This document shows, in pieces, positions 5,730 through 21,069 of a stretch of DNA of 54,889 nucleotides. This DNA is from a virus (lineage: Duplodnaviria; Caudoviricetes). Where the stretch lies: the IMG/VR virus record IMGVR_UViG_3300037869_000003, positions 1 through 54,889 of that record, one strand, 5' to 3'. The first letter of the stretch is position 1, and every line of letters starts with the position of its first letter. The notes under the pieces were generated by a model. That model saw only the letters and a list, made by a program, of their open reading frames with translations, had not been told where the DNA came from and did no database searches. The position numbers and the translations under genes were made by a program.

Positions 5730-5942
5730 ATGGAAATATTACTAACCCCGGATCAGGAATCCACCCTGTGGCATTTTGCTGACACAATTCTAACTGATAA
5801 AGGAGAAAAATTCATGTACTTCCCATATTGGTTGCGTGTTAATGGCAATGGCTCATACGAAAGACTCCGATTCGATCAGATACCAGAAGAAGTAAAAGAT
5901 AAGCTTCTTATTAAACAAGGCGTTAAACTACCTACAGAATGA
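5730..5942 (+). CDS. hypothetical protein
   Basis: 70-aa ORF, ATGA-coupled to the next gene. Confidence 0.65.
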   Translation: MEILLTPDQESTLWHFADTILTDKGEKFMYFPYWLRVNGNGSYERLRFDQIPEEVKDKLLIKQGVKLPTE

Positions 5943-7354
5943 TTGAATTACCTAATGTAACCGTAATAATAGCTGATACTAAAAATTACGGTAGAGCTGC
6001 TTATGCGATAGCTAAGACGCTGGAGCAAATAAAACCAGCTAGAATGGTATGGCTAACAGATATTGACTACGATCATCCAGGCGTGGAGGTAGTTAAAATA
6101 CCGCCTATAAAAAGCAAAGCCGAGTATTCTTACTTAATCATTAAGAGGCTTAGTCATTATTTTACAACATCTCATTGTTTAGTAATTCAGCATGATGGAT
6201 ATGTGATTGATAGTGGTATGTGGACGGATGATTATCTGGACTATGACTATATCGGTGCTCCTTGGTTATATCCAGATCCGGATAGAAATGTTGGGAATGG
6301 TGGCTTCAGCTTAAGATCCAATAAGCTACAAACTTACCTAGAGTATGATAAGAAAATTGAAATAGTAGAGCCGGAGGATGAGGTTATAGGAAGGTTATAT
6401 AGGCGTTATCTAGAAGCTACGTATAATTTATCATTTGCTCCGGAAGAATTGGCGCATAAGTTCTCGTATGAGCTTCATGAACCATACGGTAATACGTTTG
6501 GGTTTCACGGATACTTCCATCCGCCATTCAAGCCGGTAGTGGTGATAAATCGTACAGGCGCAATGGGTGATGTTATTGGCGTGGAGCCGGTATTGCATGA
6601 ATTTCATAAAAAAGGCTATCGTGTAGTTCTTAAAACGCTCCCGCAATTTTATTCCTTATTCTCAGCCCATTACTTCCCGGTAGAAAGTTTTGATATGCTT
6701 AATAAAGCGTTGCCTTATAAGTACATCGACCTGGATATGGCTTACGAAGCAAAGCCAAAGCAATTGCATTTAAAATCTTATTATGAAATTACGGGTATTG
6801 AAGGTGAATCAAGAAACCCAAAGTTGAATTATGAGGCAAGCGAAGATATAAAGCTAATCAAGCAAAAATATGCGGTAATTCATGTAGATAGGCGAGAGCA
6901 GCCGCATAGGAATGCCGATAATGTAGCTTGGTGGAAGGTTACAGATTATTTAAAAAGTAAAGGGTATATAGTTATTCAGATTGGTAAAAATGAAAGCATA
7001 AAATTGGACGCTATACAAATAAATACGATTGAGACGCGGATGTTGGCTTATGTGATTTCTGGGTGTGATTTATTTATCGGAGTGGATTCTGGGCCTTCTC
7101 ATGTTGCTGTGGCTACAGATCGCAAATGTGTGATACTGTTTGGAAGCGTAAATCCAATGTACATTCATGCTGAATTTCAAAATATCCGGCCCGTAGTAAT
7201 CCATAGCCCAGATAAACCTGTATGTGATACGCCTTTCTGTTGGCATAATAGTATTACAACTACTGGCCAGGATTGCACAGTTAATACTTTTCGGCCACCA
7301 TGTACAGAGTTTGGATCAGAAAGGATAATCAACGCTATAAATGAATTGATATGA
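5939..7354 (+). CDS. two-domain glycosyltransferase: DUF5672-like GT-A domain plus GT9 (heptosyltransferase-like) domain
   Basis: N-terminal IQHDG, YDYIGAPW, VGNGGFSLRS, PED, FGFHG; C-terminal GAMGDV and CDLFIGVDSGPSHVAVA. Confidence 0.85.
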   Translation: MIELPNVTVIIADTKNYGRAAYAIAKTLEQIKPARMVWLTDIDYDHPGVEVVKIPPIKSKAEYSYLIIKRLSHYFTTSHCLVIQHDGYVIDSGMWTDDYLDYDYIGAPWLYPDPDRNVGNGGFSLRSNKLQTYLEYDKKIEIVEPEDEVIGRLYRRYLEATYNLSFAPEELAHKFSYELHEPYGNTFGFHGYFHPPFKPVVVINRTGAMGDVIGVEPVLHEFHKKGYRVVLKTLPQFYSLFSAHYFPVESFDMLNKALPYKYIDLDMAYEAKPKQLHLKSYYEITGIEGESRNPKLNYEASEDIKLIKQKYAVIHVDRREQPHRNADNVAWWKVTDYLKSKGYIVIQIGKNESIKLDAIQINTIETRMLAYVISGCDLFIGVDSGPSHVAVATDRKCVILFGSVNPMYIHAEFQNIRPVVIHSPDKPVCDTPFCWHNSITTTGQDCTVNTFRPPCTEFGSERIINAINELI

Positions 7355-7920
7355 CATTGGAATATCCCGGAGTAGTTGGGAGCGGGGAGGTATATTTAAC
7401 TGTAATGAAGGCTATTTGTGGCGATACATCAGGTAAATCAATGGTAGATTTAATGTGCCACCATGCACCATATACACCTTTGCTTGGGTTTAAAGAACGA
7501 ACATATGTTGATATTCAGGATAGAGGGCTAGACCATAAAGAGGAGTATAAGTATTTTATCAAGTCTGATATATGGATGTTTTTGATTGATAATTCAAATC
7601 GCCATTTCGATGTAATGATATGCTCTGATGGTATTGAGCATTTGCCAAAGCAGCACGGCTGGGATTTATCGTTAAGCATGAAGCTATTATCAGATAAGGT
7701 AATAATATTTACACCATTAGGCGAATATAATATCACTAATGACGATAACCCAGATAGTCATAAAAGCGGATGGCTGCCAACAGAGTTATCCAATTATGCT
7801 ACTATAGTATTCCCTGATTTTCACCCTTCGCTGAGTATGGGAGCTTTCTTCGCCTGGTATTGCAAAGATATAGAACAGGATTTTGAACGGGTTAAAAATG
7901 AACTTAAAAACAAACTATGA
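7351..7920 (+). CDS. class I SAM-dependent methyltransferase-like protein
   Basis: SMVDLMC (degenerate motif I), YVDI, FDVMICSDGIEHL, IIFTP, HKSGW. Confidence 0.7.
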   Translation: MTLEYPGVVGSGEVYLTVMKAICGDTSGKSMVDLMCHHAPYTPLLGFKERTYVDIQDRGLDHKEEYKYFIKSDIWMFLIDNSNRHFDVMICSDGIEHLPKQHGWDLSLSMKLLSDKVIIFTPLGEYNITNDDNPDSHKSGWLPTELSNYATIVFPDFHPSLSMGAFFAWYCKDIEQDFERVKNELKNKL

Positions 7921-8159
7921 AATGGCAAAATAGAATGGATGCGGTTATTAAAGACGTTCTAGGAATAGAATGCACGTGTATTGTGGAGTCTGACAAATCA
8001 TTTTCTATATATGAAAACAATGAAAGATTACTTAGAATGGATTATTGCAATTCTTTAAATGCACATTGGAAGGATCTTGTAAAGGATGCGATAACATCTA
8101 TTATTCATGAAAAAATAAAAACATCAATTAAAAAATCACTTACAATAAATGACAACTGA
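7917..8159 (+). CDS. hypothetical protein
   Basis: 80-aa ORF, ATGA-coupled. Confidence 0.55.
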   Translation: MKWQNRMDAVIKDVLGIECTCIVESDKSFSIYENNERLLRMDYCNSLNAHWKDLVKDAITSIIHEKIKTSIKKSLTINDN

Positions 8160-8784
8160 ACAAAAAATACAAGCAATCAAAGATGCCATTGAAAAGGCAA
8201 AGAACCATCAATCTAAAATGGATGAAACGGCATGGTCTGTACCGGCGTTGTCTAGTTTGAAAATACGGCACTTGATGAATAACTTGGGAGCTATCTCAAC
8301 AAGATACCAAGAATGTGGAGTCCATAAAGGTGGGTTATTTTGTTCCGCAATAAGGAATAATAATTTGGAATGGGCTGTTGCTAATGATAATTGGGCCTCC
8401 GATGATGTAAGTGAAGATAAGGCATATCCGCAATTCATAGACAATGTTAGCAAGTGCGTTTCACCATCTACTAATTTTGTATGCTTTAAAAGCGATACGT
8501 TTGATTTAGTCCCAGACGAAATCGGCTTTGATCTTTATTTATTTGACGCGGATCACAGCTATGAAAGCCAGCGAAAGGCCATGACGCATTTCCTCCCAGC
8601 AATGGCTGATGAATTTATTCTTTGCGTGGATGACCATGACTGGCAGGATGTATGGCTTGGCACACATGATGGTTTGAAGGAGGCAAATGTTGATATATTA
8701 TTTGAAGAACCATTTAAGGGCGGCGATCATGATAATGATGGTTGGTGGAATGGATTTTATGTTGCTTTACTTAAAAAGAAATAA
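8149..8784 (+). CDS. SAM-dependent methyltransferase (Methyltransf_24-like)
   Basis: ECGVHKGG motif I, DLYLFDADHSYE, ILCVDD. Confidence 0.8.
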   Translation: MTTEQKIQAIKDAIEKAKNHQSKMDETAWSVPALSSLKIRHLMNNLGAISTRYQECGVHKGGLFCSAIRNNNLEWAVANDNWASDDVSEDKAYPQFIDNVSKCVSPSTNFVCFKSDTFDLVPDEIGFDLYLFDADHSYESQRKAMTHFLPAMADEFILCVDDHDWQDVWLGTHDGLKEANVDILFEEPFKGGDHDNDGWWNGFYVALLKKK

Positions 8785-9254: not shown

Positions 9255-10003
9255 GTAAAACATTAGGAGGATTTCTATTCATAAGGCATGGCGAATTATA
9301 CGACTACCCGTACAAGGAAGTTATTTCTTCGTTATGTGAGTTTTGTGACGAGGTAAGTGTATCAGTAGTGGATGGGGAAGATGATACATGGGGAGAGGTT
9401 GAGAGGCTTAAATTTAAATATCCAAATTTAAAAGTTGCCATTTCCTTACAAGACGTATGGGATAGTATACAAGGGAAGGAGAAATTAGCGGCATTCCAGA
9501 ATTTAGCAGCTTCTCATTTAACGACAGACTACCAGCTTCTTTGTCAGGCTGACGAAATGATTGCGCCTGAATCTTACTCATATATTCGTCAAGCGATAGA
9601 AGAAGGTGGCGAGGGTTATTTGTGTACTAGAATTAATTTATGGAAGGATGCGAACCATATGCTTAATGTTCCGCATTATCGCAAGCCCTGTAGCACTGAA
9701 GTAAACCGCCTAACTAAACGGGGGTATGAAAGCTACGATGATGGGGAAAATATTGCCAGCCCAACCGCAGATAAATACCTAGATAAAATAATCATTTGGC
9801 ACTATGGGTTTATCCGGAAGAAAGAAGTACATCCAGAAAAAATACGAAATATGCAAAAAAACATATTCCTCACAGAGCCAGATAGGAAGCTGGAGGGGAT
9901 GGGTAGCTTTGAGTGGGATCGGTGGTTTAGTGAAAGTGATCTGGCCCTGGTGACTATGGAGCATCCCCCGCACATAAGAGAATGGATAAAAACAAGGCCG
10001 TAG
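9251..10003 (+). CDS. GT2-like (GT-A) glycosyltransferase
   Basis: SLCEFCDEV..VVDGEDDT, QADE (DxD-like), HYGF. Confidence 0.8.
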   Translation: MSKTLGGFLFIRHGELYDYPYKEVISSLCEFCDEVSVSVVDGEDDTWGEVERLKFKYPNLKVAISLQDVWDSIQGKEKLAAFQNLAASHLTTDYQLLCQADEMIAPESYSYIRQAIEEGGEGYLCTRINLWKDANHMLNVPHYRKPCSTEVNRLTKRGYESYDDGENIASPTADKYLDKIIIWHYGFIRKKEVHPEKIRNMQKNIFLTEPDRKLEGMGSFEWDRWFSESDLALVTMEHPPHIREWIKTRP

Positions 10004-10011
10004 CCTTACAT

Positions 10012-10027
10012 GTTTCCACGTGGAACG
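10012..10027. promoter_or_regulatory. parS-like palindrome
   Basis: GTTTCCACGTGGAACG matches TGTTCCACGTGGAACA at 13/16 positions; perfect 12-bp core TTCCACGTGGAA; intergenic. Confidence 0.35.
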
Positions 10028-10032
10028 TTGTG

Positions 10033-10068
10033 AAACAAAAATCCCCGGCGAAATTAATCGCCAGGGAT
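10033..10068 (-). terminator. Rho-independent terminator of the inverted gene 10101-10373
   Basis: Minus strand reads ATCCCTGGCGA-ttaatt-TCGCCGGGGAT-TTTTGTTT. Confidence 0.8.
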
Positions 10069-10100
10069 AACCCATGAAAAATCAGAATCTATGAAAGTGG

Positions 10101-10373
10101 TTAGCTGCCGTTTGTGTTCAGGGTTGCGACTGTATCGGCACTGTAATAGAAGTCAGATTGACCGTTACGCTGCAAGCCAGATGGCAGCAATTCGATGATT
10201 GATTGCATGGTTACACCGTTGGCGGTTGTGCCAGCTGGAGCAGGTCTAAGTTCGCAAAGGGCACCAGGGAAATTATATCCGATGCCTTGTGTTGCGGGGC
10301 CGCCAGACGAATTTTTAAGATCGTACTGATTTTTCCGGTAACCGTTAAAAATTACTCTTCCAGTTAATGCCAT
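10101..10373 (-). CDS. small virion-like protein (possible capsid decoration), inverted orientation
   Basis: 90 aa, rich in G/A/T/N/S like the structural proteins; has its own leader and terminator. Confidence 0.6.
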   Translation of the reverse strand: MALTGRVIFNGYRKNQYDLKNSSGGPATQGIGYNFPGALCELRPAPAGTTANGVTMQSIIELLPSGLQRNGQSDFYYSADTVATLNTNGS

Positions 10374-10448
10374 AACTTTAAAAATTTAATTGTTAATAAT
10401 TGAGCCTAACCGGGGGCAAGACCGGTGGCGGCATAAAAGTACAAAAAA

Positions 10449-10465
10449 AGCTACAACGTTTGAGC
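10449..10465. promoter_or_regulatory. palindromic regulatory site, copy 1
   Basis: AGCTACAACGTTTGAGC between divergent genes 10373(-) and 10468(+). Confidence 0.6.
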
Positions 10466-10467
10466 AA

Positions 10468-11277
10468 ATGAAAATAGCGACGGTTTTACACAGCTTCCCG
10501 GCAGGAGATCTTATATCAATCCTTCCCGGACTAAAGCAAGTCTCAAAAGACAGCGACTGTAAATGGGTCATATATCAACGTCTTAATCAGTCTTACGGCA
10601 TTCACGGTGCATATATTAATGCGAAGTACTCTATATTTGATGAAGGCGGGGAGCCAGTAATGATGAACTCCCCGACGCTGAAGGCGCTACGCCCTCTTTT
10701 ATTAGTTCAGGACTATATTGAAGACTTCCGGGAATGGGATGGGGAGCGAGTTGATTTTAATTTTGACTTGCTCAGAGAAGGGACAACTACGATGCCCGGT
10801 GGTTGCATAAACCGATGGCCCATGTATATCTGGCCGGATATGGCGACTGACTTGTCTAAGGAGTGGTTGAATATCCCATACAAAATAGATCAGCGGGTGA
10901 TCGGGAAAATCCTTATCAACCGTACAGAACGTTACAATAACATGCTGGTTAGTTATAATTTTTTAAAACAATATGAAGACAATGTGATATTCGTGGGGCT
11001 GCCGGGAGAGCATGAGGTTTTTTGTAAGCAAAATAAGCTGGATATTCAAAGGCTAGAAGCTGCTGATTATTTAGAGATCGCAACTGCTCTGTACAATTGC
11101 AAGGTTTATATAGGCGGCCAATCGAGCATATTCCAAGTGGCAGAGGGGTTGAAGATACCACGCGTCTTGGAGGTCTGCAATTCTATTCCAAATGTGATCG
11201 GTAGCGGCCCCGGCTTCTATGATTTTCTAACGCAACGATCATTGGAATATTATACTGAAAAACTATTTAACTCATGA
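10468..11277 (+). CDS. GT9-like (GT-B) glycosyltransferase
   Basis: HSFPAGDLISILP N-terminal motif; FVGLPGEH; CKVYIGGQSS..VAEGLKIPR; ATG 10468 preferred over TTG 10390. Confidence 0.7.
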   Translation: MKIATVLHSFPAGDLISILPGLKQVSKDSDCKWVIYQRLNQSYGIHGAYINAKYSIFDEGGEPVMMNSPTLKALRPLLLVQDYIEDFREWDGERVDFNFDLLREGTTTMPGGCINRWPMYIWPDMATDLSKEWLNIPYKIDQRVIGKILINRTERYNNMLVSYNFLKQYEDNVIFVGLPGEHEVFCKQNKLDIQRLEAADYLEIATALYNCKVYIGGQSSIFQVAEGLKIPRVLEVCNSIPNVIGSGPGFYDFLTQRSLEYYTEKLFNS

Positions 11278-11483
11278 TAGATATTACAGCATATCAACAA
11301 AGATTGGAATGGCTGAAGGAATGGATGAATTTAAGAATTGATAGAATGATGCGAGAGCGGGTTGTGATTTATGAAAGAGTTGGCAGACATAGCATAACTC
11401 ATGACTTTAGAAATTTTGATACATTTTGTCGCCATAAAACAAGAAACTATACCAATAAGGCATTACGATCATTTTTTAAGTAA
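11274..11483 (+). CDS. hypothetical protein
   Basis: 69-aa ORF, ATGA-coupled. Confidence 0.55.
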   Translation: MIDITAYQQRLEWLKEWMNLRIDRMMRERVVIYERVGRHSITHDFRNFDTFCRHKTRNYTNKALRSFFK

Positions 11484-11491
11484 ATTTAATC

Positions 11492-11710
11492 ATGAATAGA
11501 CGTTCTCTTATAAAACGGGTTTGGGATAAACTTTTTCGTAGAAAGAGAAATATATCGAAACGGTTAGTGAATGACATAGTGATTATGACTCCCCAGTATT
11601 ATGGCGATTATGTAAAGAAATATGGTCAAGAGAACTGGACTATCCTAGCACAAGAATTTGGCAGAATTAATAAACCCAAAACAGATGGCAACGAAAGTAA
11701 AAGTGTCTAA
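11492..11710 (+). CDS. small protein carrying a copy of major capsid protein residues 25-57
   Basis: LVNDIVIMTPQYYGDYVKKYGQENWTILAQEFG vs MCP LVSNLQLLTPQYYKQFVEKYGAENWTWWLATYG: 16/33 identical, ungapped. Confidence 0.75.
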   Translation: MNRRSLIKRVWDKLFRRKRNISKRLVNDIVIMTPQYYGDYVKKYGQENWTILAQEFGRINKPKTDGNESKSV

Positions 11711-11915
11711 ATCTAAAGGCCCAATAGGATACCCAGAAGATCATAAGCCAGGAATGAAAGTCCCTCTTGGTGGATCAAATTGCGGCAACTGCCTTTACTG
11801 GGACGGATCAGATTGCGAGAATGAATATTACCGAAAGTGGAACAATGGTAGTGGGAAGATCCCAGTAGATAATCCAGAAGGCTATTGTTCAGATTGGTGG
11901 ACTCCTAAACGTTAA
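11685..11915 (+). CDS. HiPIP-like four-Cys protein
   Basis: CGNC-x6-C...PEGYCSDWW; ATG 11685 preferred. Confidence 0.5.
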   Translation: MATKVKVSKSKGPIGYPEDHKPGMKVPLGGSNCGNCLYWDGSDCENEYYRKWNNGSGKIPVDNPEGYCSDWWTPKR

Positions 11916-11926
11916 AGCATAAATAA

Positions 11927-12118
11927 ATGGTAGACAATAAAAAGATAAAGCAAACAGATAATTCCCCAAAAGGTATCATGGTATTAGATACTGGCGGCTT
12001 GGCAATTGACATGGGAGAAATAAAAAATATTGTCAGTGCTATTAATTGCATTGACATAGAGTATTATGATGGTACTAAAATAACTTGGTGGCCTGTATAT
12101 TTGGATCAATTAAAATAG
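11927..12118 (+). CDS. hypothetical protein
   Basis: 63-aa ORF within the operon. Confidence 0.5.
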   Translation: MVDNKKIKQTDNSPKGIMVLDTGGLAIDMGEIKNIVSAINCIDIEYYDGTKITWWPVYLDQLK

Positions 12119-12127
12119 ATAAAAGGC

Positions 12128-12820
12128 ATGGAAAAACTTAAACACACTGAGGGCCGTATAATAATAAAAATGGACATGGAGTATAAAAATTCCGTAACAT
12201 TTTCTGATGGCACAAAGATAAGACTTGAGCGTAAGTATGATTGCTTCGATCAGAAACATACTCAACCTGTAAATGCAATTGTTGTGTCTGCCGATGGAAT
12301 CCCTGAAGATTCTGAAATAATAGTGCACCATAATTGCACCCATGAAACTGGTCGCATACATAATTATCAGCCATTATCTGGCAAGGTGGAGGCTAGTGAT
12401 GTTCGTTATTTTTCAATACTGGAAGATGAAGCATTCGCGTGGTATGATGAAGTAAATTCAAAGTGGATGCCATTAAAAGGATTTGATTTCGCTCTGCAAA
12501 TATTTAAGCCATATAAAGGTATACTTGAAGGTATTGAACCTGCGCCGATAAAAAATTGTTTATGGGTTACTACTGGCGAATACGCTGGTAATGCCTGCAT
12601 GACCTTACAAGCCAGTAATTACAAAATGATTTTTCAGGATCGAAATGGACGTGAGAAGAATATTATAAGATTCAGATCAGAAGAGGATTTAAAAACCCAA
12701 CGTGAACTAGAAATAGTCTGCCTACATCATTCTTACACTAAACAGGTTTTGAATGGTGATTTGCATGTAGGGTTGACAATTTCAGACGCTAAACCTTTAA
12801 AAGAATATATTCATGCCTGA
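12128..12820 (+). CDS. conserved pre-terminase protein, possibly GroES-like fold
   Basis: IIIKMD...DGTKIRL...AIVVS...EIIVHHN beta pattern loosely resembles GroES; lies upstream of the terminase genes. Confidence 0.4.
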   Translation: MEKLKHTEGRIIIKMDMEYKNSVTFSDGTKIRLERKYDCFDQKHTQPVNAIVVSADGIPEDSEIIVHHNCTHETGRIHNYQPLSGKVEASDVRYFSILEDEAFAWYDEVNSKWMPLKGFDFALQIFKPYKGILEGIEPAPIKNCLWVTTGEYAGNACMTLQASNYKMIFQDRNGREKNIIRFRSEEDLKTQRELEIVCLHHSYTKQVLNGDLHVGLTISDAKPLKEYIHA

Positions 12821-13187
12821 TGAAAAAGAGTTAGAAAAGAAAATAAAAGTATTAGAGCAACAATTATCCGAAAAAGAAAAGATAATTAAAGACCCGTCTA
12901 AGCGCGGGTATTTTGCTTTATGTAAAATACTATATCAGCAGATTGAATACTTGGAACAATTCGATCTTAAAAAACAGATAGCAGAAAACCCTAAAGAGGA
13001 TAAAGTATATGACAGAACCAAGGGGATTTGGGAAGGGCTAAAGACGATGATAATTGATTGTCGTACTCTTAAGCAAGAGTTAGGAGTGTCAAATGAAGAT
13101 GAAGAAAAAGAGGTAAAGAAAATATCTAGAATAACACCTGAAACAATGAGTGATGTATTGGGAAATACCGCAGGGAAAATCAATTAA
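12813..13187 (+). CDS. terminase small subunit (putative)
   Basis: 124-aa helical protein directly upstream of and overlapping TerL. Confidence 0.5.
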   Translation: MPDEKELEKKIKVLEQQLSEKEKIIKDPSKRGYFALCKILYQQIEYLEQFDLKKQIAENPKEDKVYDRTKGIWEGLKTMIIDCRTLKQELGVSNEDEEKEVKKISRITPETMSDVLGNTAGKIN

Positions 13188-15228
13188 TATACAGGGGTTG
13201 GAATGTAAAATTCCGCCTGAAGGGTTTGTTTATAATATCGTATCTGGTAAGCTGGAAGCGCGAGATGTATACAAGCGATCCGAAGTGCCGGAGGAGCAAT
13301 ATTGGGAAAGAATACCATTGCCGATATGGTACAAGGATACTATAAAAAGATGGGAATCATATGACCGAAAGAAAAAAGAAGACGACCCCGAGTTCTTTGA
13401 TGAGCAACTAGAGGATTTTAAGGCCCAAGAATGGGATAGGCGACTGAATGGGTTTTGGTTTATGAATAAAGGAGTAGCCACATATATAACCGGTATGCAT
13501 TATTTGTTTATGCAGTGGTGGAGCATAGATATTGGCTATCCTAAATTTAGAATCATAGATCTGGAGTATTTTTATTTTTTACAGTACGTAATAGAAGATC
13601 CAAATTGCTACGGGATGCTTGAAGTATGCAAGCGTCGTAATGGGAAAACATATAGGGCTGGGGTATTTATTTATGAGTACATAACCAGAACTAAAACAAC
13701 TAATGCTGGCATTCAGTCAAAGACTGGCCCGGATGCAAAGAAATTATTTGGCAAGGCGGTGGTTGGCCCATTCAAGAAATTGCCAAAATTCTTTAGGCCG
13801 GAATATGATATGAGCTTAGGTGTTACTCCCAAGACCGAAATCAGATTCCAGCAAACGAACGTTCGCGGTAAGAAGGCTGAAGATTATTTGGAACGAGAAG
13901 AACTTAACTCTTTAATTGACTTTCAAAGTGCCGATGTAATGGCTTATGATGGTCAAAAATTACATAGAAAATTCGATGATGAGTTTTGTAAAACGGTCGA
14001 GTGTAATATATATGAACGTCACGAGGTAACAAGGTTTTGCTTGGTGGATGATGAGGGTAATATAATTGGGAAAGTTCTTTATAGTTCCACTGTTGAAAAA
14101 TTGAAAACTGACAGAGAGGGTGTGCAGGAAGGGGCTAAGTTATTGTGGGATGAAAGTAATCAATTGGATATACAAGAAAACGGACAAACCAAGAGTGGAT
14201 GTTATAGGTTTTTTATAGGAGCGCATCGTTCAAGGAATATAGATGTGTATGGATTCCCTGACGAAGAAAAAAGCAAACAGCAAATATTAGCTAATTGGGA
14301 AGCGGTTAAAAACAATCCACAAGCATATTCGGCTCGTAAAAGAAAAGAACCATTAACTATAAATGATGCTTTTGGGATTGATGCAGATACTTGCGTTTTC
14401 AATGCTGAGAATATAGAAAAGCGAACAAATGAATTGCTTCAAGCCCCTGTTCATAAAAGAAAAATATTCTTTTATAGAGATTTAGAACAGAAGGTTAAAT
14501 GGAGAGATTGGCAAAAAACAGATGGCCCTATGTTCTGGAAAGTTACGCCAGAGTTCGAGCTGAATATGAAGGAAGAAGTATATAAAATAAGTGATAATCT
14601 CAGAACCCCAACAAGAGTGCATTACGGTGCTATTTCTATTGACGGGTATTCTAATTCACAAGGGGGCCGTAAGTATGGTAGTAAGGCTGCTGCTTTTATT
14701 GGATATAGGCATTTACTTAAGCCTGTTGGATTTTTGTATGGAAGACCAAACATAAAGGATGACCTTCATAACCAGGTGATGTTGGCGGCAGAGTTTTGTG
14801 GCTTCAAGGCTTATTATGAGCATACCGCAGATGATTATTATGGGTATTTTAGAGATCGGGGCAAGATTAGGTATTTGGGGAAATATCCAATGAGTATGAT
14901 TGATCCAGTGAAAATAAAAGAAGCGCAAAAGCAGAATAAGGAAGTAGAGCGATTCTACGGAACCCCTATAACCCCATTTAGCCTAACAACGCAACACGAT
15001 AATGGGATGGCATATTTTGAGCATCATTGCCATTGCATAGACTTTGAGGAGGTTTTGGAATGGGCACCTAAATTTGATCCATATGATAGAACGAAGTGTG
15101 ACATTATTGTGTCATTATTGATTCTGATCTCGGTTCTTATGGAGCCGGTAGTAAAGCCGAAGCCACCAAGAGAACCATTGGTTCGGAGTTATTTAAATAC
15201 CCACGGGCAAAATTTTAACGCGAATTAG
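13150..15228 (+). CDS. terL: terminase large subunit
   Basis: ITGMHY adenine-binding motif, Walker A KRRNGKT, Walker B FDDE, SST coupling motif, nuclease ISIDG; upstream of the portal. Confidence 0.92.
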   Translation: MMYWEIPQGKSINIQGLECKIPPEGFVYNIVSGKLEARDVYKRSEVPEEQYWERIPLPIWYKDTIKRWESYDRKKKEDDPEFFDEQLEDFKAQEWDRRLNGFWFMNKGVATYITGMHYLFMQWWSIDIGYPKFRIIDLEYFYFLQYVIEDPNCYGMLEVCKRRNGKTYRAGVFIYEYITRTKTTNAGIQSKTGPDAKKLFGKAVVGPFKKLPKFFRPEYDMSLGVTPKTEIRFQQTNVRGKKAEDYLEREELNSLIDFQSADVMAYDGQKLHRKFDDEFCKTVECNIYERHEVTRFCLVDDEGNIIGKVLYSSTVEKLKTDREGVQEGAKLLWDESNQLDIQENGQTKSGCYRFFIGAHRSRNIDVYGFPDEEKSKQQILANWEAVKNNPQAYSARKRKEPLTINDAFGIDADTCVFNAENIEKRTNELLQAPVHKRKIFFYRDLEQKVKWRDWQKTDGPMFWKVTPEFELNMKEEVYKISDNLRTPTRVHYGAISIDGYSNSQGGRKYGSKAAAFIGYRHLLKPVGFLYGRPNIKDDLHNQVMLAAEFCGFKAYYEHTADDYYGYFRDRGKIRYLGKYPMSMIDPVKIKEAQKQNKEVERFYGTPITPFSLTTQHDNGMAYFEHHCHCIDFEEVLEWAPKFDPYDRTKCDIIVSLLILISVLMEPVVKPKPPREPLVRSYLNTHGQNFNAN

Positions 15229-15267
15229 CTCAATCGTTGTAGCTTTGTTTGAAAATTGTTATATTTG
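15227..15267 (+). promoter_or_regulatory. palindromic site copy 2 overlapping a portal promoter
   Basis: AGCTCAATCGTTGTAGCT (15227-15244); TTG at 15237-39, 20-nt spacer, TATATTTG at 15260-67. Confidence 0.65.
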
Positions 15268-15284
15268 GTTAACTTTCTTTATTA

Positions 15285-17708
15285 ATGTCTGATAATCAAT
15301 CACAAAGCATAGGCATCTCCGGGCAGTCGTATAAAGATTTTCTTCTCACAAAGAATATCAAGGATAAACTTGACCCTAAATACGGAAAGCAATTAGCGCT
15401 GGATATTGAACAGAAATACAGTGCAGGAGTGGCTAATGGATATTCTTTTCTTAGGAATGATCGTTTTAAAACTAATATACTATGGTCTGCCGGAAAGATT
15501 AACGTGTATGCAAAATTCGCTGATCTTCTGAATTTTAATGGGAAGGTTAATTACGCAAATCTGAAATATAGTGCCCCCATGCTAGTTAACCGGATTATTA
15601 CCGGTCTAGTTGGTAGATGGATGCAGCGCGTAGAGAAAATACAAGTTACAGCAGTTGATCCGTTATCTGTTAAAGATAAGCAAGATCAATATGAGCAGGC
15701 AGAATTTGTACTTTATAATAGAAAGCAATTAGAGCAACTTCAGCAAGAATCAGGAGTCCCATTGGTGCCTCCTGACCAGTTTGTAGCAGAGGATAAAGAT
15801 GATTTGGAAGAGTGGGCGATTAGTGGACAGCGGTTACCAGAGGAGATTAAATATGAAATAGGGACTAATGATATTTTGCAATCGCAAGGTTTTTTTGACA
15901 CCTTAAAGAAAAAGATACTCCACGATTCAATAGAGTGCGGGCTAGTTTCTACTTATGTGTGGATGGATGAATATGGTGTAGTGCATGTGGAGTGGGTAAA
16001 GCCGTTAAATAGCCTATACTCTTATTCTGAGTTTGATGATATGAGAGATACGGCTATGCGGGGTTTTGTGAAGTCTCTTAAAATATCAGAGATTAGGCGT
16101 AAGTATGGAAAGGAATTTGGCGGAACTTTATCAGAGGAGGATTTGTTTTTAATCGCGCAAACTTCTCAGGAATATCAACGTTTCGATAAACTCACTTGGA
16201 ACTACGATTGGCTATTGGCTTATATCCGGCCATACGACGAATGGAACGTAGAATGTATTTATTTCTGGATTAAATCGGTTGATGAGGATGGGTACTTGAT
16301 GACTGTCACAAAACAGAATAAAAGTACTATCATAGAACGTAGGCAACAACAGCCAAACAGCCTGGATGAAAACCAAGAGTTCGTAAAAAAAGATAAGTGG
16401 AATTTATATAAAGGCGTGTATGTAAGGTATGCGCAAAAGATGCTGGAGTGGGGATTGGATAATAATATGATCCGGCCACAAGACCCGAAGGAGTCAGGTG
16501 ATGTGGAGTTCCCGATCAGCCTTTACATGTATCAAAATCAGGATATGCGCAATATCGCGTTACCTGAGAAAATAGAGCAGCCAATTGAAGCTATGATTGT
16601 TGTCATATTGAAAATGCAACAAGTCATAGCTACGATGATCCCCCCAGGGGCTGCTATCAATATAGATGCTATTAATGAAGTTGATTTGGGGTTGGCCGCA
16701 GATGGCACAAGCCCTATCAATGTTCAGAAAGTTTATGAGCAAACTGGCAGATTGTATTACAGGGGTCGAGATGCAGAAGGTAATCCCTTACCGGTTCCTA
16801 TTCAGGAATTGCAAAATGCTGGATTTATTGGAGCCATGCAGGGGCTTATTCAGCAATACGACTTTCAGTATCGAGTATTAAAAGATCAATTAGGGGAAGA
16901 CCCTAATTTAATTACTCAGGCAGTTCAGCCACGTGTTACTTCGGAAAATGTACAGGCATCCCAGCAGACAGCAGCTTTCGCTACGGATTATATGTATGAT
17001 GCCTATAAGTGTATAATGGAAGATACCGCCAAGAAGGTAGCCTGCTTATTGAATAACTCAGTACGTTTTGGTGCAAAAGTTTACAGGCACTTATTGAAAG
17101 AAGAAGATGTTGCTGATAGGCAGTTCTCGACTAAGTTTGAGTTGCTGCCAGATCAATTCGAGATAGCTGAAATGACCAACTCTGTAAATCAGGCACTAGC
17201 GGCTAATCCTGCACTTATTAATTATTTAGATCCAGCTAAACTGAAACGAATAGCCAAAGAAAATAGCAAGCTGGCTTCTTTGTATTTCAGAAATTCAATG
17301 AAGCGAATGATCCGGGCTGAATCCGAAAAGGCGCAGCAACAAAGCGAACAAAATGCCCAGATACAGGCACAGGCAGCACAGCAAAAGGCGCAAGGAGACA
17401 TGCAGTTGTTGCAAGCCCAAAATCAAATGAAGGCACTGGAGATTACAGAACAATCCAAGGCTAAAAAAGAAGAGATATTCCTTGCTGGATATTTGGAGTT
17501 ACTGAAGGCTGGGGTGCCAATCACGAATGAGGTTATGCAGGTAATGAATCAGCTCATACCTTCTATAACAATCCCATTAGTTCAGCAAAATAAGCAAATG
17601 GTTCAAGGCGTAATACAACAGGCGATGGCTGAACAACAACAGCAACAAACCCCAGAAGAAGGGCAAGAGCAGCCAGAGGAACAACAACAAATGATGCAAC
17701 CACAATAA
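15285..17708 (+). CDS. portal protein
   Basis: 807 aa after TerL; P22/crAss-type size with a Q-rich C-terminal helical barrel. Confidence 0.85.
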   Translation: MSDNQSQSIGISGQSYKDFLLTKNIKDKLDPKYGKQLALDIEQKYSAGVANGYSFLRNDRFKTNILWSAGKINVYAKFADLLNFNGKVNYANLKYSAPMLVNRIITGLVGRWMQRVEKIQVTAVDPLSVKDKQDQYEQAEFVLYNRKQLEQLQQESGVPLVPPDQFVAEDKDDLEEWAISGQRLPEEIKYEIGTNDILQSQGFFDTLKKKILHDSIECGLVSTYVWMDEYGVVHVEWVKPLNSLYSYSEFDDMRDTAMRGFVKSLKISEIRRKYGKEFGGTLSEEDLFLIAQTSQEYQRFDKLTWNYDWLLAYIRPYDEWNVECIYFWIKSVDEDGYLMTVTKQNKSTIIERRQQQPNSLDENQEFVKKDKWNLYKGVYVRYAQKMLEWGLDNNMIRPQDPKESGDVEFPISLYMYQNQDMRNIALPEKIEQPIEAMIVVILKMQQVIATMIPPGAAINIDAINEVDLGLAADGTSPINVQKVYEQTGRLYYRGRDAEGNPLPVPIQELQNAGFIGAMQGLIQQYDFQYRVLKDQLGEDPNLITQAVQPRVTSENVQASQQTAAFATDYMYDAYKCIMEDTAKKVACLLNNSVRFGAKVYRHLLKEEDVADRQFSTKFELLPDQFEIAEMTNSVNQALAANPALINYLDPAKLKRIAKENSKLASLYFRNSMKRMIRAESEKAQQQSEQNAQIQAQAAQQKAQGDMQLLQAQNQMKALEITEQSKAKKEEIFLAGYLELLKAGVPITNEVMQVMNQLIPSITIPLVQQNKQMVQGVIQQAMAEQQQQQTPEEGQEQPEEQQQMMQPQ

Positions 17709-18424: not shown

Positions 18425-19603
18425 ATGGAACAAGCAATAGAACCAGTAGTAGCGCAACCTGAAGAACCAGTAGTGCAGGCTGCGCCTGAAGTTAGCCAGA
18501 TTGTGGCTGGCAATTTATGGGGTCTTAACCCAACTGCTTATCAGGACATAGAGCAAGCGCCTCCAGTAGCCGCATCGGCCCAAAGCGCAAATGACGTACA
18601 GCCTGCCGCAACGCAAAGCCAGGATGCGGAAGAAGTCGTAGATGTGAATGATTATTTCAAGAGAGAGTTCGGCTTAGAGGTAAATGAATTTAGAACTAAA
18701 TGGGAAGAATATAATAAGCCAAAAGAGCCAGTACAGCCACAGGAGCAAAAGTGGGTTTATGATGATTCTAAGGAAGAAGAGATTTACAACTATATAAATC
18801 AAAAAAGACAGCTTGATAGATTGGAGAAGTATGATATAGCCAATGCGGATCAGGCTGCTGAAATAATCAGGGCTAATCTTCAATTCAAACACAAAGACCT
18901 TCAACCTAACGAAATTGATCGGCTTTTTGCCCGTCAATATTCTATGCCTCCACAACCGCAGCAAAACGACCTTCAGACAGATGAAGAGTTCTCTGCGGTA
19001 ATGGATCAATGGAAGCGACAGGTTCAGGATAGGCAGCAGGATATGATTATTGACGCAAAGCTGGCTAAACCTGAGTTATCAAAATTCAAAAGCGAAATAG
19101 TTCTGCCAGATATTCAAAAGCCACAAGTGCAACAGGCAGGGCCAACCCAGGAAGAGCTGGCGGCCTTTGAGTCTGCAAGAGCGGCTTATTTAGGTGCATT
19201 AGAAAGTGGCTATCAAAACTTCAAAGGATTTAATGTGACGGCAAAGAGCGGAGATGTTCAGTTGCCGATAAGTTACAATGTAAGTCCAGAGGAACAGGTA
19301 GCCACGAAAAAGGAGTTAGAGGATTTTAATGTTAATGGTTTTTTTGACAAGAGATGGTGGGATGATAAAGGAAACCCTCACGTAACGCTGATGCAAGAAG
19401 ATTTGTATTTGCTTAAAAACAGGGATAAAATTCTTCAGAAAACCGCCAACGAAGCAGCAGCACAGATGTATGCGTACATGATTAAAAACCAGAATAACAT
19501 TAACCTGAAAGGTGTTAATCCCTCATTAGGGCCGGTTAACCCAGTACAGCCAACTCCAGTAAATGAATCACAAGCTCTGGCAGCAAGTATTTGGAGTTTA
19601 TAA
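18425..19603 (+). CDS. capsid scaffolding protein (putative)
   Basis: Acidic, Q/E/P-rich helical 392-aa protein directly upstream of the MCP. Confidence 0.6.
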   Translation: MEQAIEPVVAQPEEPVVQAAPEVSQIVAGNLWGLNPTAYQDIEQAPPVAASAQSANDVQPAATQSQDAEEVVDVNDYFKREFGLEVNEFRTKWEEYNKPKEPVQPQEQKWVYDDSKEEEIYNYINQKRQLDRLEKYDIANADQAAEIIRANLQFKHKDLQPNEIDRLFARQYSMPPQPQQNDLQTDEEFSAVMDQWKRQVQDRQQDMIIDAKLAKPELSKFKSEIVLPDIQKPQVQQAGPTQEELAAFESARAAYLGALESGYQNFKGFNVTAKSGDVQLPISYNVSPEEQVATKKELEDFNVNGFFDKRWWDDKGNPHVTLMQEDLYLLKNRDKILQKTANEAAAQMYAYMIKNQNNINLKGVNPSLGPVNPVQPTPVNESQALAASIWSL

Positions 19604-19629: not shown

Positions 19630-21069
19630 ATGGCAGGAATACCTACCAGTAACATATTGCAGCCTGGTAATATATCAGTCTCAGGCGGCGCGAATAGGGC
19701 GTTAGTGTCCAATCTTCAATTGCTAACCCCTCAGTATTACAAACAATTCGTTGAAAAATATGGGGCAGAAAACTGGACGTGGTGGTTAGCTACTTATGGC
19801 GGCATGGAGCAAGTCATGAACCGTAATTTCTTCTGGTTCGAGAGCCGTGGCAAACTTCAAATCGGTATTCAGTTAGCTTCTAATGCTACCGGCGCTACCG
19901 CAGGCGCTACCGTGGCGTGTACTCTCGCGTCTGCGTTTCACTTCAACTCTGGCACTCAATCGCCTTTGCGCGTAGGGGAAACAATTTACATTGCTTCTAC
20001 CGGAGTTGGTGGCGAAATCCTTGGGCCAATCGTTGAAACCGCAAATGCTTTCACATTCAACTTGCGTCCGAAACAATCTACTCAGTCATTGGCATCTGCT
20101 GGACAAGCATCTACATTGTTGGCTACGGATGTGATTATTTTCGGTGGTCGTGTGGATGTAGGCGAAGCGTCTGGTACTAATATTCCGCAAGTATATCTTA
20201 CTCAGAAATATGAGAATAACATCACCGAAATCCACGATACATGGTCTGCGACCGATTTGGGCGAAATGACTGATGTGTTTATTGATAGTGGTGTAAGTGG
20301 TTCTCCTATTGGTGGCGCTGCTCAGGCCGGTACATCCTATTTCACATATTTAGGATTAGTAAAAGCATCTCAACGCTTCGTGAATAACGTAGAGCGCAAG
20401 CTAATGTTTGGTGATGCTGTTAATAATACCGGATTAGGCACAGATACATCAGTGGGTTGCCAAGGACTTCTTCCAAAGATTCTAGCAGATGGCGAGACTG
20501 TAACTTATACTCCTGGTAATTTGGATATCCCATTCCTACATACGCTTACCCGCGTTATGGATGTAAATGGATGCGTGAAGCAAAATATGTGGATGGCCGA
20601 TATCTTCCAACGCCAAGACTTTTCTGATGGCATTTTCCAAACTTTCCCTGCCGGTGCATTCGTTTGGGGACAAGGAGAAAAATCAGAAGACGCAAGTGTG
20701 GCATATGGCTTCAAGTTGATTGATATTGACGGTTATCGTTTCCAGATCGGTAAATATCGCAACTTCAACACTGAAGCATATACAGGTTTAACACCAGCTA
20801 CAGACTACTACCGTAATTTCGGTTTCTTATGTCCAATGGGCGAAACACCGGATGCGAAAACTCCAGCACGCGTTTATAAAAACATTACAGTAATGAGTCA
20901 ACAACCTCCTAAAGGTGGCTCAATAGGTAATGGCATTCGTGTATGGAACTGGGGTGGTGGTTCTACCAATCCTACGGATGGTACATTGCGGGATAATATT
21001 GAAATGGCAACCTACAGATCGATAAGAAATGTTGCAGCCAATCAATTCATCAACATTGTAAGTGCATAA
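19630..21069 (+). CDS. major capsid protein
   Basis: 479 aa; FFWFE E-loop-like segment, VERKLMFG and GLL motifs typical of HK97-fold MCPs; strong codon bias; followed by a terminator. Confidence 0.85.
   Translation: MAGIPTSNILQPGNISVSGGANRALVSNLQLLTPQYYKQFVEKYGAENWTWWLATYGGMEQVMNRNFFWFESRGKLQIGIQLASNATGATAGATVACTLASAFHFNSGTQSPLRVGETIYIASTGVGGEILGPIVETANAFTFNLRPKQSTQSLASAGQASTLLATDVIIFGGRVDVGEASGTNIPQVYLTQKYENNITEIHDTWSATDLGEMTDVFIDSGVSGSPIGGAAQAGTSYFTYLGLVKASQRFVNNVERKLMFGDAVNNTGLGTDTSVGCQGLLPKILADGETVTYTPGNLDIPFLHTLTRVMDVNGCVKQNMWMADIFQRQDFSDGIFQTFPAGAFVWGQGEKSEDASVAYGFKLIDIDGYRFQIGKYRNFNTEAYTGLTPATDYYRNFGFLCPMGETPDAKTPARVYKNITVMSQQPPKGGSIGNGIRVWNWGGGSTNPTDGTLRDNIEMATYRSIRNVAANQFINIVSA

What the first reader, a model, noticed from the sequence alone, without database searches (positions are those of the whole stretch)
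11492..11710. 72-aa ORF that mimics the N-terminal arm of the phage's own major capsid protein
Seen: residues 25-57 (11564-11662) align without gaps to MCP residues 25-57 (19702-19800), 16/33 identical (TPQYY, KYG, ENWT). Seven of the 16 identical codons differ synonymously (act/acc, ccc/cct, tat/tac, gta/gtt, ggt/ggg, gag/gaa, act/acg), which suggests selection on the peptide rather than a recent DNA duplication. The segment is fused to a very basic N-terminus that begins like a twin-arginine motif (MNRRSLIK) but lacks a hydrophobic region. Known: some anti-phage systems (CapRel, Lit) are triggered by capsid protein. Inference: a decoy for a capsid-sensing defence, an assembly regulator, a capsid-interference factor against related phages, or a capsid-targeting tag.
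Basis: partly seen in the sequence, partly recalled or inferred. Interest (0 to 1): 0.85.

Follow-up and report, generated by a model that had tools for sequence, protein, structure and literature searches.

The report
Small phage protein copying capsid arm
A small, dispensable gene of an uncultured soil phage carries a diverged copy of the N-terminal arm of the phage's own capsid protein and belongs to a large, undescribed family of such proteins, which probably compete for whatever binds that arm, although this has not been tested.

Summary
ORF72 residues 25-57 match residues 25-57 of the 479-aa capsid protein at 16/33 positions, and 7 identical residues use different codons. BLASTP gives E=7e-11.

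ORF72 is not an orphan. A profile search found 104 small-protein clusters. Most have a fixed 22-residue signal-peptide-like leader (MxRxSFLKSL..APKILAE) followed by a copy of MCP residues ~18-80 (hhalign 99%, E=6e-18).

ORF72 is a rare variant, 4 of 104. It keeps MNRRSLIK but has a basic amphipathic helix in place of the hydrophobic core.

The gene is an accessory cassette:
- Relatives with 89-97% identical MCPs carry 25-42% identical versions in the same slot.
- A close relative lacks exactly 11488-11708.
- Most related phages have none.
- dN/dS is 0.16-0.39 among leader-type copies.

No Pfam, PHROG, NCBIfam or PADLOC family matches.

Best reading, with the mechanism inferred rather than shown: a competitive mimic of the MCP N-arm, acting in the cytoplasm in this copy. 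The decoy, packaging-tag and export readings remain open. This is a real, undescribed family of unknown function.

The parts
11492..11710 (+). ORF72, 72 aa: basic-helix variant of the leader + MCP-N-arm small-protein family
   Evidence: It matches the family profile at 86.7 bits. It is packed 8 nt after the preceding ORF and overlaps the next by 26 nt. AlphaFold2 predicts two helices, 3-31 and 34-59, with pLDDT 70.5 and pTM 0.24.
11492..11515 (+). First 24 nt (MNRRSLIK), conserved at the DNA level between copies that are otherwise very divergent
   Evidence: The exact 24-mer is also in L001 and L130, whose proteins are 33% and 27% identical to ORF72. It is nearly invariant in the 5-sequence DNA alignment.
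11516..11563 (+). Basic amphipathic segment (RVWDKLFRRKRNISKR) in place of the leader's hydrophobic core and linker
   Evidence: Alignments A2 and A6. The same replacement is seen in P0143 (14/18 identical N-terminal residues, read from the A6 alignment), P0155 and P0222.
11555..11662 (+). MCP-N-arm-like segment, residues 22-57
   Evidence: BLASTP E=7e-11; shuffle control. It keeps 8 of the 9 positions that are >=70% conserved across the family or named here (L25, D28, P34, Y36, K43, Y44, G45, E47); L29 is I in ORF72.
19630..21069 (+). Putative HK97-fold major capsid protein, 479 aa
   Evidence: Foldseek top hits are the phicrAss001 MCP and the VP1 capsid. 979 homologues, none given a functional name among the 120 listed. 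Gene order.
19693..19800 (+). MCP N-arm residues 22-57, the segment that was copied
   Evidence: It is among the most conserved stretches of the MCP family: L29-Q35, E42, G45 and E47 are invariant in 32 sequences.
11488..11708 (.). Presence/absence cassette: exactly this stretch is missing in a close relative
   Evidence: A 56,958-nt contig of run X3 and a contig of run X4 join 11487 to 11709, with 39 other letters between. The X3 left flank carries 69 other letters over 1,082 bases.
11685..11915 (+). Downstream conserved 76-aa Cys-containing ORF whose start overlaps the ORF72 3' end
   Evidence: 60-82% identical in L001-L003, L005-L007. The same overlap is seen in L001 and L003.
11274..11483 (+). 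Variable 69-aa ORF in the slot just upstream
   Evidence: No homologue in relatives by tblastn. L001/L003, L131 and L002 each carry a different small ORF there.
18425..19603 (+). 392-aa acidic, Q/E/P-rich ORF immediately upstream of the MCP; putative scaffolding protein, assigned by position only
   Evidence: No family hit.

Best explanation
ORF72 is a real, expressed-type gene. It is a leader-less variant of a large, undescribed family of small accessory proteins of an uncultured, probably Bacteroidota-infecting phage lineage. The family arose by partial duplication of the 5' end of the major capsid protein gene. Its members carry a helix-turn-helix copy of the MCP N-terminal arm: MCP residues ~18-80, residues 22-57 in ORF72, and up to ~105 in long members. 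The copy sits behind a fixed 22-residue signal-peptide-like leader. In ORF72 the leader's hydrophobic core has been replaced by a basic amphipathic helix, so this copy should stay in the cytoplasm (inference). The copy keeps 8 of the 9 best-conserved or named N-arm positions (L25, D28, P34, Y36, K43-Y44-G45, E47; L29 is I). The most likely mechanism is therefore competitive mimicry: it binds whatever the N-arm binds. In other HK97-fold phages the N-arm binds the C-terminal helix of the scaffolding protein and neighbouring capsid subunits. The gene is a dispensable, fast-evolving cassette in a plastic small-gene region. It is therefore more likely a modulator or conflict factor than a core assembly component. 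Possible roles are interference with capsid assembly of co-infecting relatives, or titration of a factor that recognises the invariant arm. Shown here: the homology, the family, its architecture, the accessory distribution and purifying selection. Inferred: binding by mimicry, the partner, the cellular location and the biological role. The confidence given applies to the whole statement: the descriptive part I hold at about 0.9, the mimicry mechanism at about 0.35-0.45.
For: Homology: BLASTP E=7e-11; at most 11 identities in 200 shuffles against 16 observed; family profile against MCP profile at hhalign probability 99.0%, E=6e-18, 63 columns, MCP 18-80. Family: 118 cluster representatives at E<=1e-3, of which 104 are small proteins after I removed 14 MCPs or MCP fragments. 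85 of 104 score >=10 bits on the N-arm part of an MCP profile, and 79 of 104 hit it by BLASTP. The consensus of 81 small-protein arms is identical to the MCP consensus at 24 of 35 positions. Real gene: the frame is open in all syntenic copies despite 25-42% identity. dN/dS is 0.16-0.39 among leader-type pairs. Gene spacing is tight. A ~93% identical copy of 11470-11666 without gaps occurs in another soil study (X4 record 14). The variant is conserved: P0143, P0155 and P0222 share the basic N-terminus, and P0143 is 14/18 identical there (read from A6) against 44% overall in that alignment. Accessory status: relatives with 89-97% identical MCPs have 25-42% identical copies. There is a precise 221-nt absence in X3 and X4 contigs. 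There is none in L002. Small-ORF hits occur in 7 of 81 sources within +/-10 kb of the MCP and in 3 of 42 whole records. Established knowledge: in 80alpha the scaffold C-terminal helix contacts the capsid N-arm helix, and SaPI1 CpmB competes there (PMC5644958, passages read).
Against: No binding partner was shown. 94 of 104 family members carry a leader that looks like a cleavable export signal. That would take the arm copy out of the cytoplasm, away from scaffold and capsid proteins. The cytoplasmic-competitor reading may therefore hold only for the rare basic variants, or the leader may do something else. A mimic of its own MCP arm would also interfere with the phage's own assembly unless timing or dose prevents it. 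dN/dS for ORF72 itself against relatives is 0.30-0.76, with dS about 0.9-1.9 and so near saturation; selection on this copy is not firmly measured. The MCP and scaffold identities rest on a weak structural match and on gene order. There are no expression data.
Confidence: 0.45

Rival explanations
1. Exported or membrane-inserted peptide. The leader is a genuine Sec/Tat-type signal, so the arm copy works in the envelope or outside the cell, for example in superinfection exclusion or signalling. ORF72 would then be a derived form that has lost export.
For: The leader has a positively charged n-region, 9-13 uncharged residues, and a proline fixed at position 17 in 91 of 94. The residue at position 21 is small in 67 of 94 (A43, S16, G8), followed by E or D in 68 of 94. 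R-R-x-hydrophobic-hydrophobic-K geometry is present. The nearest named language-model clusters are Tat-signal families, but at scores of 0.79-0.85, which are leads only. The same leader heads unrelated small proteins in Cellulophaga phages phi46:3 and phi13:2. MAG contigs point to Bacteroidota hosts, 8 of 9.
Against: The twin arginine is present in only 23 of 94. Pfam TAT_signal matches 1 of 61 at E=0.11 and NCBIfam matches nothing. ORF72, P0143, P0155 and P0222 lack any hydrophobic core yet keep the arm. No periplasmic role for a capsid N-arm is known. No signal-peptide predictor was available.
Confidence: 0.2
2. Decoy for, or inhibitor of, a host immune sensor that recognises the invariant MCP N-arm.
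For: The arm is one of the most conserved MCP segments, so escape by mutation would be costly. The gene is a fast-evolving presence/absence cassette in a plastic region, as anti-defence genes often are. Capsid-triggered systems exist (CapRel, Lit/Gol; recalled, not read here).
Against: No sensor is known for these hosts. There is no PADLOC hit for the gene or its neighbours. A free arm could trigger a sensor rather than block it. The export-like leader of most members does not fit a cytoplasmic decoy.
Confidence: 0.15
3. Packaging tag. The arm copy binds the scaffold or shell interior so that the small protein is incorporated into procapsids, as a minor or ejected protein analogous to T4 internal proteins with a capsid-targeting sequence.
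For: A conserved N-terminal module is shared by proteins with different C-terminal parts, in a polymorphic locus. This resembles the T4 CTS with its diverse internal proteins (PMC3012670, passages read). The leader ends in I/L-x-E, which resembles the T4 prohead-protease motif (motif recalled, not read here).
Against: No prohead protease family was found among the structural-module ORFs that were scanned. The leader also occurs in phages with no detectable relative of this MCP or of 10 other window genes. No virion proteome is available.
Confidence: 0.12
4. Non-functional by-product: a decaying fragment left by illegitimate recombination in a plastic region.
For: Distribution is sporadic, with a truncated 38-aa copy in L005/L006 and complete absence in close relatives.
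Against: There are 104 clusters with the same architecture and conserved key residues. dN/dS is below 1. A basic sub-variant is conserved. A ~93% identical gap-free copy occurs in a second study.
Confidence: 0.05

Closest known systems
SaPI1 CpmB (capsid-size redirection by mimicry of the helper phage scaffold C-terminus)
   Same: A small accessory protein that carries a copy of an interaction motif from the capsid-assembly machinery. In 80alpha the interface concerned is scaffold C-terminal helix against capsid N-arm helix (PMC5644958, passages read).
   Different: CpmB copies the scaffold side and ORF72 copies the capsid side. CpmB is encoded by a satellite, whereas ORF72 lies in line with the phage's own genes. 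Binding is shown for CpmB and not for ORF72. CpmB has no signal-like leader.
Full-length MCP paralogues (SaPIbov5 Ccm; T4 gp24 vertex protein)
   Same: Extra genes derived from the major capsid protein gene (Ccm: PMC8569155, abstract in the search listing only; gp24: PMC3012670 abstract).
   Different: Those retain the whole HK97 fold and build into shells. ORF72 keeps only ~36 residues of the arm, and family members keep at most ~85. The prediction is two helices with no fold core.
T4 internal proteins with the capsid targeting sequence
   Same: A short conserved N-terminal module, a hypervariable remainder, and a polymorphic locus (PMC3012670).
   Different: The leader here looks like an export signal. 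It is also shared with phages that have no detectable relative of this MCP. No protease or virion data exist. ORF72 keeps only the first 8 leader residues.
Sec/Tat signal peptides
   Same: n-h-c organisation, RRxhhK-like start and a small residue at -1 in typical family members.
   Different: Profile models do not match. RR is present in a minority. ORF72 has no h-region.
phicrAss001 gp57, portal-vertex auxiliary protein
   Same: A small protein that takes the place of another capsid component at a special position in a capsid whose MCP is the best structural match here (PMC10172136, passages read).
   Different: gp57 substitutes for the auxiliary protein gp36 and is not described as an MCP copy. 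There is no sequence relation, and ORF72-type genes are missing from most relatives.

Membership tests
Twin-arginine (Tat) signal peptide (Pfam PF10518, TIGR01409) | R-R-x-hydrophobic-hydrophobic-K motif near the N-terminus | tested here: met
   ORF72 reads M-N-R-R-S-L-I-K. In the family, RR occurs in only 23 of 94 canonical leaders.
Twin-arginine (Tat) signal peptide (Pfam PF10518, TIGR01409) | Uncharged h-region after the motif | tested here: not met
   ORF72 has 0 uncharged residues after K8. Typical members have 9-13.
Twin-arginine (Tat) signal peptide (Pfam PF10518, TIGR01409) | Match to the curated profile | tested here: not met
   No Pfam hit for ORF72. PF10518 matches 1 of 61 members at E=0.11. 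No NCBIfam Tat model is listed among the 18 families shown for the 61 members.
Twin-arginine (Tat) signal peptide (Pfam PF10518, TIGR01409) | Actual export and cleavage | not testable with these tools
   No signal-peptide predictor or experiment was available.
HK97-fold major capsid protein | Sequence homology to an MCP | tested here: met
   Arm only.
HK97-fold major capsid protein | E-loop, P-domain with spine helix, A-domain | tested here: not met
   72 aa, two predicted helices and nothing else. ORF72 is not a capsid protein.
T4-type capsid-targeting-sequence proteins | Conserved N-terminal module on otherwise unrelated proteins | tested here: met
   Family level: P0192-type cargo matches MCP 271-308 instead of the arm, and there is unrelated cargo in L116-L118. 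ORF72 itself keeps only 8 leader residues.
T4-type capsid-targeting-sequence proteins | Prohead protease that removes the module | tested here: inconclusive
   No protease family among the 20 window ORFs scanned against Pfam and PHROGs. Most of those ORFs match nothing at all.
T4-type capsid-targeting-sequence proteins | Presence inside virions | not testable with these tools
   No isolate exists: the MCP and a typical family member have no match in 50,697 phage records.
Assembly-interface mimic (CpmB-like) | Carries a copy of an assembly interaction motif | tested here: met
   Copy of the MCP arm with 8 of the 9 best-conserved or named positions kept; L29 is I in ORF72.
Assembly-interface mimic (CpmB-like) | Binds the partner of the copied motif | not testable with these tools
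   Needs pull-down or cryo-EM.
Assembly-interface mimic (CpmB-like) | Encoded by a competing element | tested here: not met
   It lies co-linear with the phage's own genes, in a conserved slot between the homologues of 10390-11277 and 11685-11915.
Known defence / anti-phage families (PADLOC) | Profile match | tested here: not met
   0 families for ORF72, five family members and four neighbours.

The most novel reading that the evidence does not exclude
These phages maintain a toolkit of leader-tagged peptide copies of the most conserved segments of their own structural proteins. The MCP N-arm is the commonest cargo. At least one group of four clusters copies MCP 271-308 instead (hhalign E=4.5e-4). 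There are marginal hints of a portal segment (475-495) and of the N-terminus of the 223-aa protein at 22092-22763. The peptides would be deployed, membrane-tethered or exported in the typical form and cytoplasmic in the ORF72 form, as dominant-negative or decoy molecules. Their use would be in conflicts between related phages or with a host sensor of invariant capsid motifs. That would be a new class of virus-encoded self-mimic.
Probability: 0.25. Interest if true: 0.85.

Novelty: new variant of a known kind. Interest (0 to 1): 0.62.

Why it matters
The MCP N-arm is the handle through which HK97-fold capsids are guided by scaffolds and locked together. Here is a natural, widespread family of free-standing arm copies: 104 clusters at 50% identity, with no Pfam, PHROG, NCBIfam or PADLOC model and no isolate. 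It offers a ready-made probe of what the arm binds in a large uncultured phage lineage. It would also be a new example of molecular mimicry within the capsid assembly pathway, this time encoded by the phage itself. If the leader is a true export signal, the family poses an unexplained question: why send a capsid arm out of the cytoplasm? If it is a decoy or interference factor, it would add a new category to phage conflict genes.

Tried and rejected
**Sequence and structure searches that returned nothing**
- A direct search with ORF72 alone in the 5.8-billion protein set returned only ORF72 itself. The family appeared only with a 4-sequence profile.
- Megablast of 10000-22000 against phages: no match.
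- A profile of 32 MCPs against PDB sequences: no hit.
- Sigma-70 promoter and terminator scans around the gene were at chance level, 10 found against 10.4 expected. They are not suited to Bacteroidota anyway.

**Complex prediction**
- Complex prediction with the 392-aa scaffold-like protein (residues 70-392, 18-row alignment) and ORF72 (81-row alignment) gave no verdict (score 0.01, mark 0.32, controls not run). This is reported here only and is not evidence either way.

**Sequencing runs**
- The look-up of sequencing runs listed no RNA holder, so expression stays untested.

**Co-variation**
- Only five full small-ORF/MCP pairs were available, and four have nearly identical MCP arms.
- The one hint is residue 49. 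It is W in 9 of 85 MCPs, all in the window's clade, and W in 7 of 81 small proteins, including the window's and several syntenic ones. L074 has Y in both.
- These copies are not phylogenetically independent, so I do not count this as a test.

**Mosaic idea (other structural fragments)**
- In the profile test, only P0192 (14.6 bits, MCP 273-315) exceeded the highest control score, 9.6 bits in 624 reversed or shuffled sequences.
- Below that level and kept only as leads: portal 475-495 (P0167 and P0210, 9.1-9.2 bits), the 22092 N-terminus (P0143, P0168, P0122; 9.2, 7.7, 4.6 bits) and MCP 194-225 (P0223, P0150, P0190; 6.3, 5.7, 4.1 bits).
- Against 1,243 large ORFs of all loci, only P0192 passed E<=1e-3.

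**Ideas considered and set aside**
- The leader's 'PKILA' is identical to MCP 282-286. I judged this possibly chance and did not test it formally.
- The 76-aa downstream protein recalled a HiPIP-like cysteine pattern (from memory), but Pfam at E<=10 gives nothing.
- A fusion of ORF72 with that gene by frameshift was considered. It was dropped because the gene stands alone in L002 and in the X3 contig.

**Tools and files not available**
- Paper supplements were not opened. Virion proteomes of Cellulophaga phages (recalled to exist, not seen) might show whether leader-bearing small proteins are in particles.
Full report
**1. The observation**

The window is a 54,889-bp IMG/VR virus record, 84% complete by CheckV. 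ORF 11492-11710 (+) encodes 72 aa.

Its residues 25-57 align without gaps to residues 25-57 of the 479-aa ORF 19630-21069:
- 16 of 33 residues are identical.
- 7 of the identical residues use different codons.
- Nucleotide identity is 52 of 99.
- In 200 shuffles the best window reached at most 11 identities.
- BLASTP gives 16/36 identical for residues 22-57, E=7e-11.

**2. Is the 479-aa protein the capsid protein, and is this its N-arm?**

It has no Pfam, PHROG or PDB-sequence match. It has 979 homologues; none of the 120 listed carries a functional name. The AlphaFold2 model from 32 sequences is poor (pLDDT 51).

Foldseek nevertheless ranks phicrAss001 capsid chains and the VP1 capsid first, at probability 0.99-1.0 and E 6e-6 to 7e-5. 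TM-scores are only ~0.22, so this is a lead and not proof.

Gene order fits: TerL (PHROG 6681, 7e-62), an 807-aa portal-sized ORF, two small ORFs, a 392-aa acidic ORF, and then this gene.

The matched residues precede the well-folded beta block at 79-173. In phicrAss001 the E-loop insertion domain occupies residues 79-180 (PMC10172136, passage read). I accept 'MCP N-arm' as the working label.

The arm is among the most conserved MCP stretches: L29-Q35, E42, G45 and E47 are invariant in 32 sequences that are 63-91% identical overall.

**3. ORF72 has relatives**

ORF72 alone found only itself. tblastn into seven related phage loci then revealed 94-95-aa proteins in L001, L003 and L007. All start MNRRSLIK, continue with a hydrophobic stretch (SILGLAAAPKILAE) and then have an MCP-arm-like segment. 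The L007 copy matches MCP residues 21-74 at 54% identity.

A 4-sequence profile searched against 1.84 billion representatives gave 118 hits at E<=1e-3. I removed 14 MCPs or MCP fragments: P0021, eleven found by a motif, P0234 and P0236. That leaves 104 small proteins of 38-154 aa.

Arm similarity across the family:
- 85 of 104 score >=10 bits on the arm part of an MCP profile.
- 79 of 104 hit it by BLASTP.
- Profile against profile gives 99.0% probability, E=6e-18, MCP columns 18-80.
- The consensus of 81 small-protein arms is identical to the MCP consensus at 24 of 35 positions. The best-kept residues are L25, D28, L29, P34, Y36, K43, Y44 and G45. ORF72 has all of these except L29, which is I.
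- Long members continue the similarity to about MCP residue 105 (read by eye).

**4. The leader**

94 of 104 proteins have a fixed-geometry N-terminus:

| Position | Residue | Count (of 94) |
|---|---|---|
| 1 | M | 91 |
| 3 | R | 91 |
| 6 | F, L or V | 93 |
| 8 | K or R | 91 |
| 9 | S | 78 |
| 17 | P | 91 |
| 18 | K | 68 |
| 21 | small residue (A43, S16, G8) | 67 |
| 22 | E or D | 68 |

This has the n-h-c layout of a cleavable signal peptide and the spacing of the Tat motif. Three results go against a true Tat signal:
- RR occurs in only 23 of 94.
- Pfam TAT_signal matches 1 of 61 members at E=0.11.
- No NCBIfam Tat model is listed among the 18 families shown for the 61 members.

Language-model neighbours of the leader are Tat-signal clusters, but at scores of 0.79-0.85, which the tool rates as leads only.

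The same kind of leader heads small proteins with unrelated C-terminal parts in three other phage records, L116-L118. L117 and L118 are Cellulophaga phages phi46:3 and phi13:2. None of the three has a detectable relative of this MCP or of 10 other window genes.

MCP relatives occur on nine MAG contigs, eight of them binned to Bacteroidota. The host phylum is therefore probably Bacteroidota, with the caveat that binning can be wrong.

**5. ORF72 is a distinct, conserved variant**

ORF72 keeps MNRRSLIK. Its first 24 nt are identical in L001 and L130, although those proteins are only 33% and 27% identical to it. In place of the hydrophobic core and linker it has RVWDKLFRRKRNISKR.

P0143, P0155 and P0222 show the same replacement. 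P0143 is 14/18 identical to ORF72 in this part (read from alignment A6) and 44% identical overall in that alignment. This is a maintained sub-type and not decay.

AlphaFold2 with 81 family sequences predicts two helices, 3-31 and 34-59, broken at T33-P34, with pLDDT 70.5 and pTM 0.24. That describes a peptide likely to fold on a partner. The first helix is amphipathic and strongly basic (read from the sequence).

Without an h-region this copy cannot be exported by Sec or Tat. That follows from established knowledge and was not tested.

**6. Genomic behaviour**

ORF72 lies in a tightly packed co-directional array, 8 nt after the previous ORF and overlapping the next by 26 nt.

The slot between the homologues of 10390-11277 and 11685-11915 holds a family member in L001, L003/L128, L130, L131 and the L004 record. 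L007 and L005/L006 carry theirs two genes further on. The L005/L006 copy is cut to 38 aa. L002 has none.

Laying contigs of other soil and rhizosphere runs showed two things:
- A 56,958-nt contig (X3) and an X4 contig join 11487 directly to 11709 through 39 other letters. ORF72 is missing exactly, while the X3 left flank carries 69 other letters over 1,082 bases.
- Another X4 contig covers 11470-11666 with 13 differences and no gaps.

Further afield the gene is rare. It was found in 7 of 81 sources within +/-10 kb of the MCP and in 3 of 42 whole records.

Copies diverge much faster than the MCP: 25-42% identity against 89-97%. dN/dS (NG86) is 0.16-0.39 among leader-type pairs. For ORF72 against relatives it is 0.30-0.76, with dS about 0.9-1.9 and so near saturation. 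L001 against L130 shows 6 non-synonymous and 0 synonymous changes, which is not significant by my estimate.

The small-gene slot just upstream is also variable.

**7. What it most likely does**

Shown:
- It is a peptide-level, selected copy of the MCP arm.
- It is dispensable, cassette-like and fast-evolving.
- It belongs to a large family.

Inferred: because the residues kept are largely those invariant in the MCP arm, the peptide should bind the arm's partner or partners. In 80alpha the scaffold C-terminal helix lies against the capsid N-arm helix, and SaPI1 CpmB competes there (PMC5644958).

I therefore favour competitive mimicry of the arm, cytoplasmic for ORF72, with an accessory or conflict role and not a core one.

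The main difficulty is the export-like leader of most members. It points either to a function outside the cytoplasm or to a leader with another role, such as membrane tethering or a T4-CTS-like targeting module (PMC3012670). I could not discriminate between these. No family in Pfam, PHROGs, NCBIfam or PADLOC matches.

**8. A wider pattern (lead)**

Four leader-bearing clusters (P0192, P0187, P0229, P0210) carry, instead of the arm, a segment resembling MCP 271-308:
- BLASTP for P0192 gives E=2e-5 against the window's ORFs.
- The profile score for P0192 is 14.6 bits against a control maximum of 9.6.
- hhalign gives E=4.5e-4 at probability 33%.

Other apparent fragments, from the portal, the 22092 protein and the middle of the MCP, do not exceed the controls.

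**9. Novelty**

Full-text searches did not surface a description of such a family in the listings returned:
- 'major capsid protein' + decoy + CapRel + phage
- signal peptide + major capsid protein + N-terminal arm + small protein + phage
- partial duplication + major capsid protein + bacteriophage
- capsid protein + mimic + anti-defense + small protein + phage-encoded

I read only the listings of those searches, plus the 'decoy' passages of one preprint, which concerned mass-spectrometry databases.

Neither the MCP nor a typical family member has any match in 50,697 deposited phage records.

I rate this a new variant of a known kind: mimicry of a capsid-assembly interface, or a gene-fragment paralogue. 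It would be categorically new if the export or decoy reading proves right.

**10. Verdict**

This is a real and undescribed gene family whose mechanism is inferred, not shown. Interest 0.62.

Noticed in passing
window 13150-15228 versus L001, L002, L004-L006 (TerL): The large terminase is only 37-39% identical in phages whose portal (77-96%) and MCP (85-97%) are close, but 68% identical in L003 and L007. This looks like a terminase module exchange within one capsid lineage.
   Followed up: no
window 11685-11915: A conserved 76-aa protein with four cysteines (CxxC...C...C) whose start overlaps the ORF72 stop. From memory the pattern resembles HiPIP-type iron-sulfur proteins, but Pfam at E<=10 and PADLOC give nothing.
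   Followed up: partly
window 11274-11483; L001 ~790-990; L131 ~9730-9990; L002 1427-1620: The slot between the 295-aa gene and the family member holds a different small ORF in each lineage. This is a hyperplastic small-gene region.
   Followed up: partly
proteins P0192, P0187, P0229, P0210 (no locus): Leader-bearing small proteins whose cargo resembles MCP residues 271-308 instead of the N-arm.
   Followed up: partly
L117 10001-10291, L118 10001-10348 (Cellulophaga phages phi46:3, phi13:2); L116 10001-10291: The same kind of leader (MKRSSFLKSLLGIA.AP...) heads small hypothetical proteins with unrelated cargo, in phages with no detectable relative of this MCP. That cargo has no second match in its own genome.
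   Followed up: partly
L005 and L006 2014-2130: A family member truncated to 38 aa (leader plus 16 residues) by a stop codon, just upstream of the homologue of 12128-12820.
   Followed up: no
window 5939-8784: Auxiliary-looking genes upstream: a 471-aa protein with DUF5672 and glycosyltransferase family 9 matches, and a 211-aa methyltransferase-domain protein.
   Followed up: no
window 47436-48089 (-) and 54427-54876 (-): A phage-encoded sigma-70-family factor (PHROG 1740, 4e-15) and a DNA methyltransferase (PHROG 757, 1e-27) on the opposite strand.
   Followed up: no
window 19630-21069 and its 979 homologues: A large, environmentally widespread capsid-protein family without any Pfam or PHROG model and without an isolate in 50,697 phage records. 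The best structural lead is the phicrAss001 MCP.
   Followed up: partly
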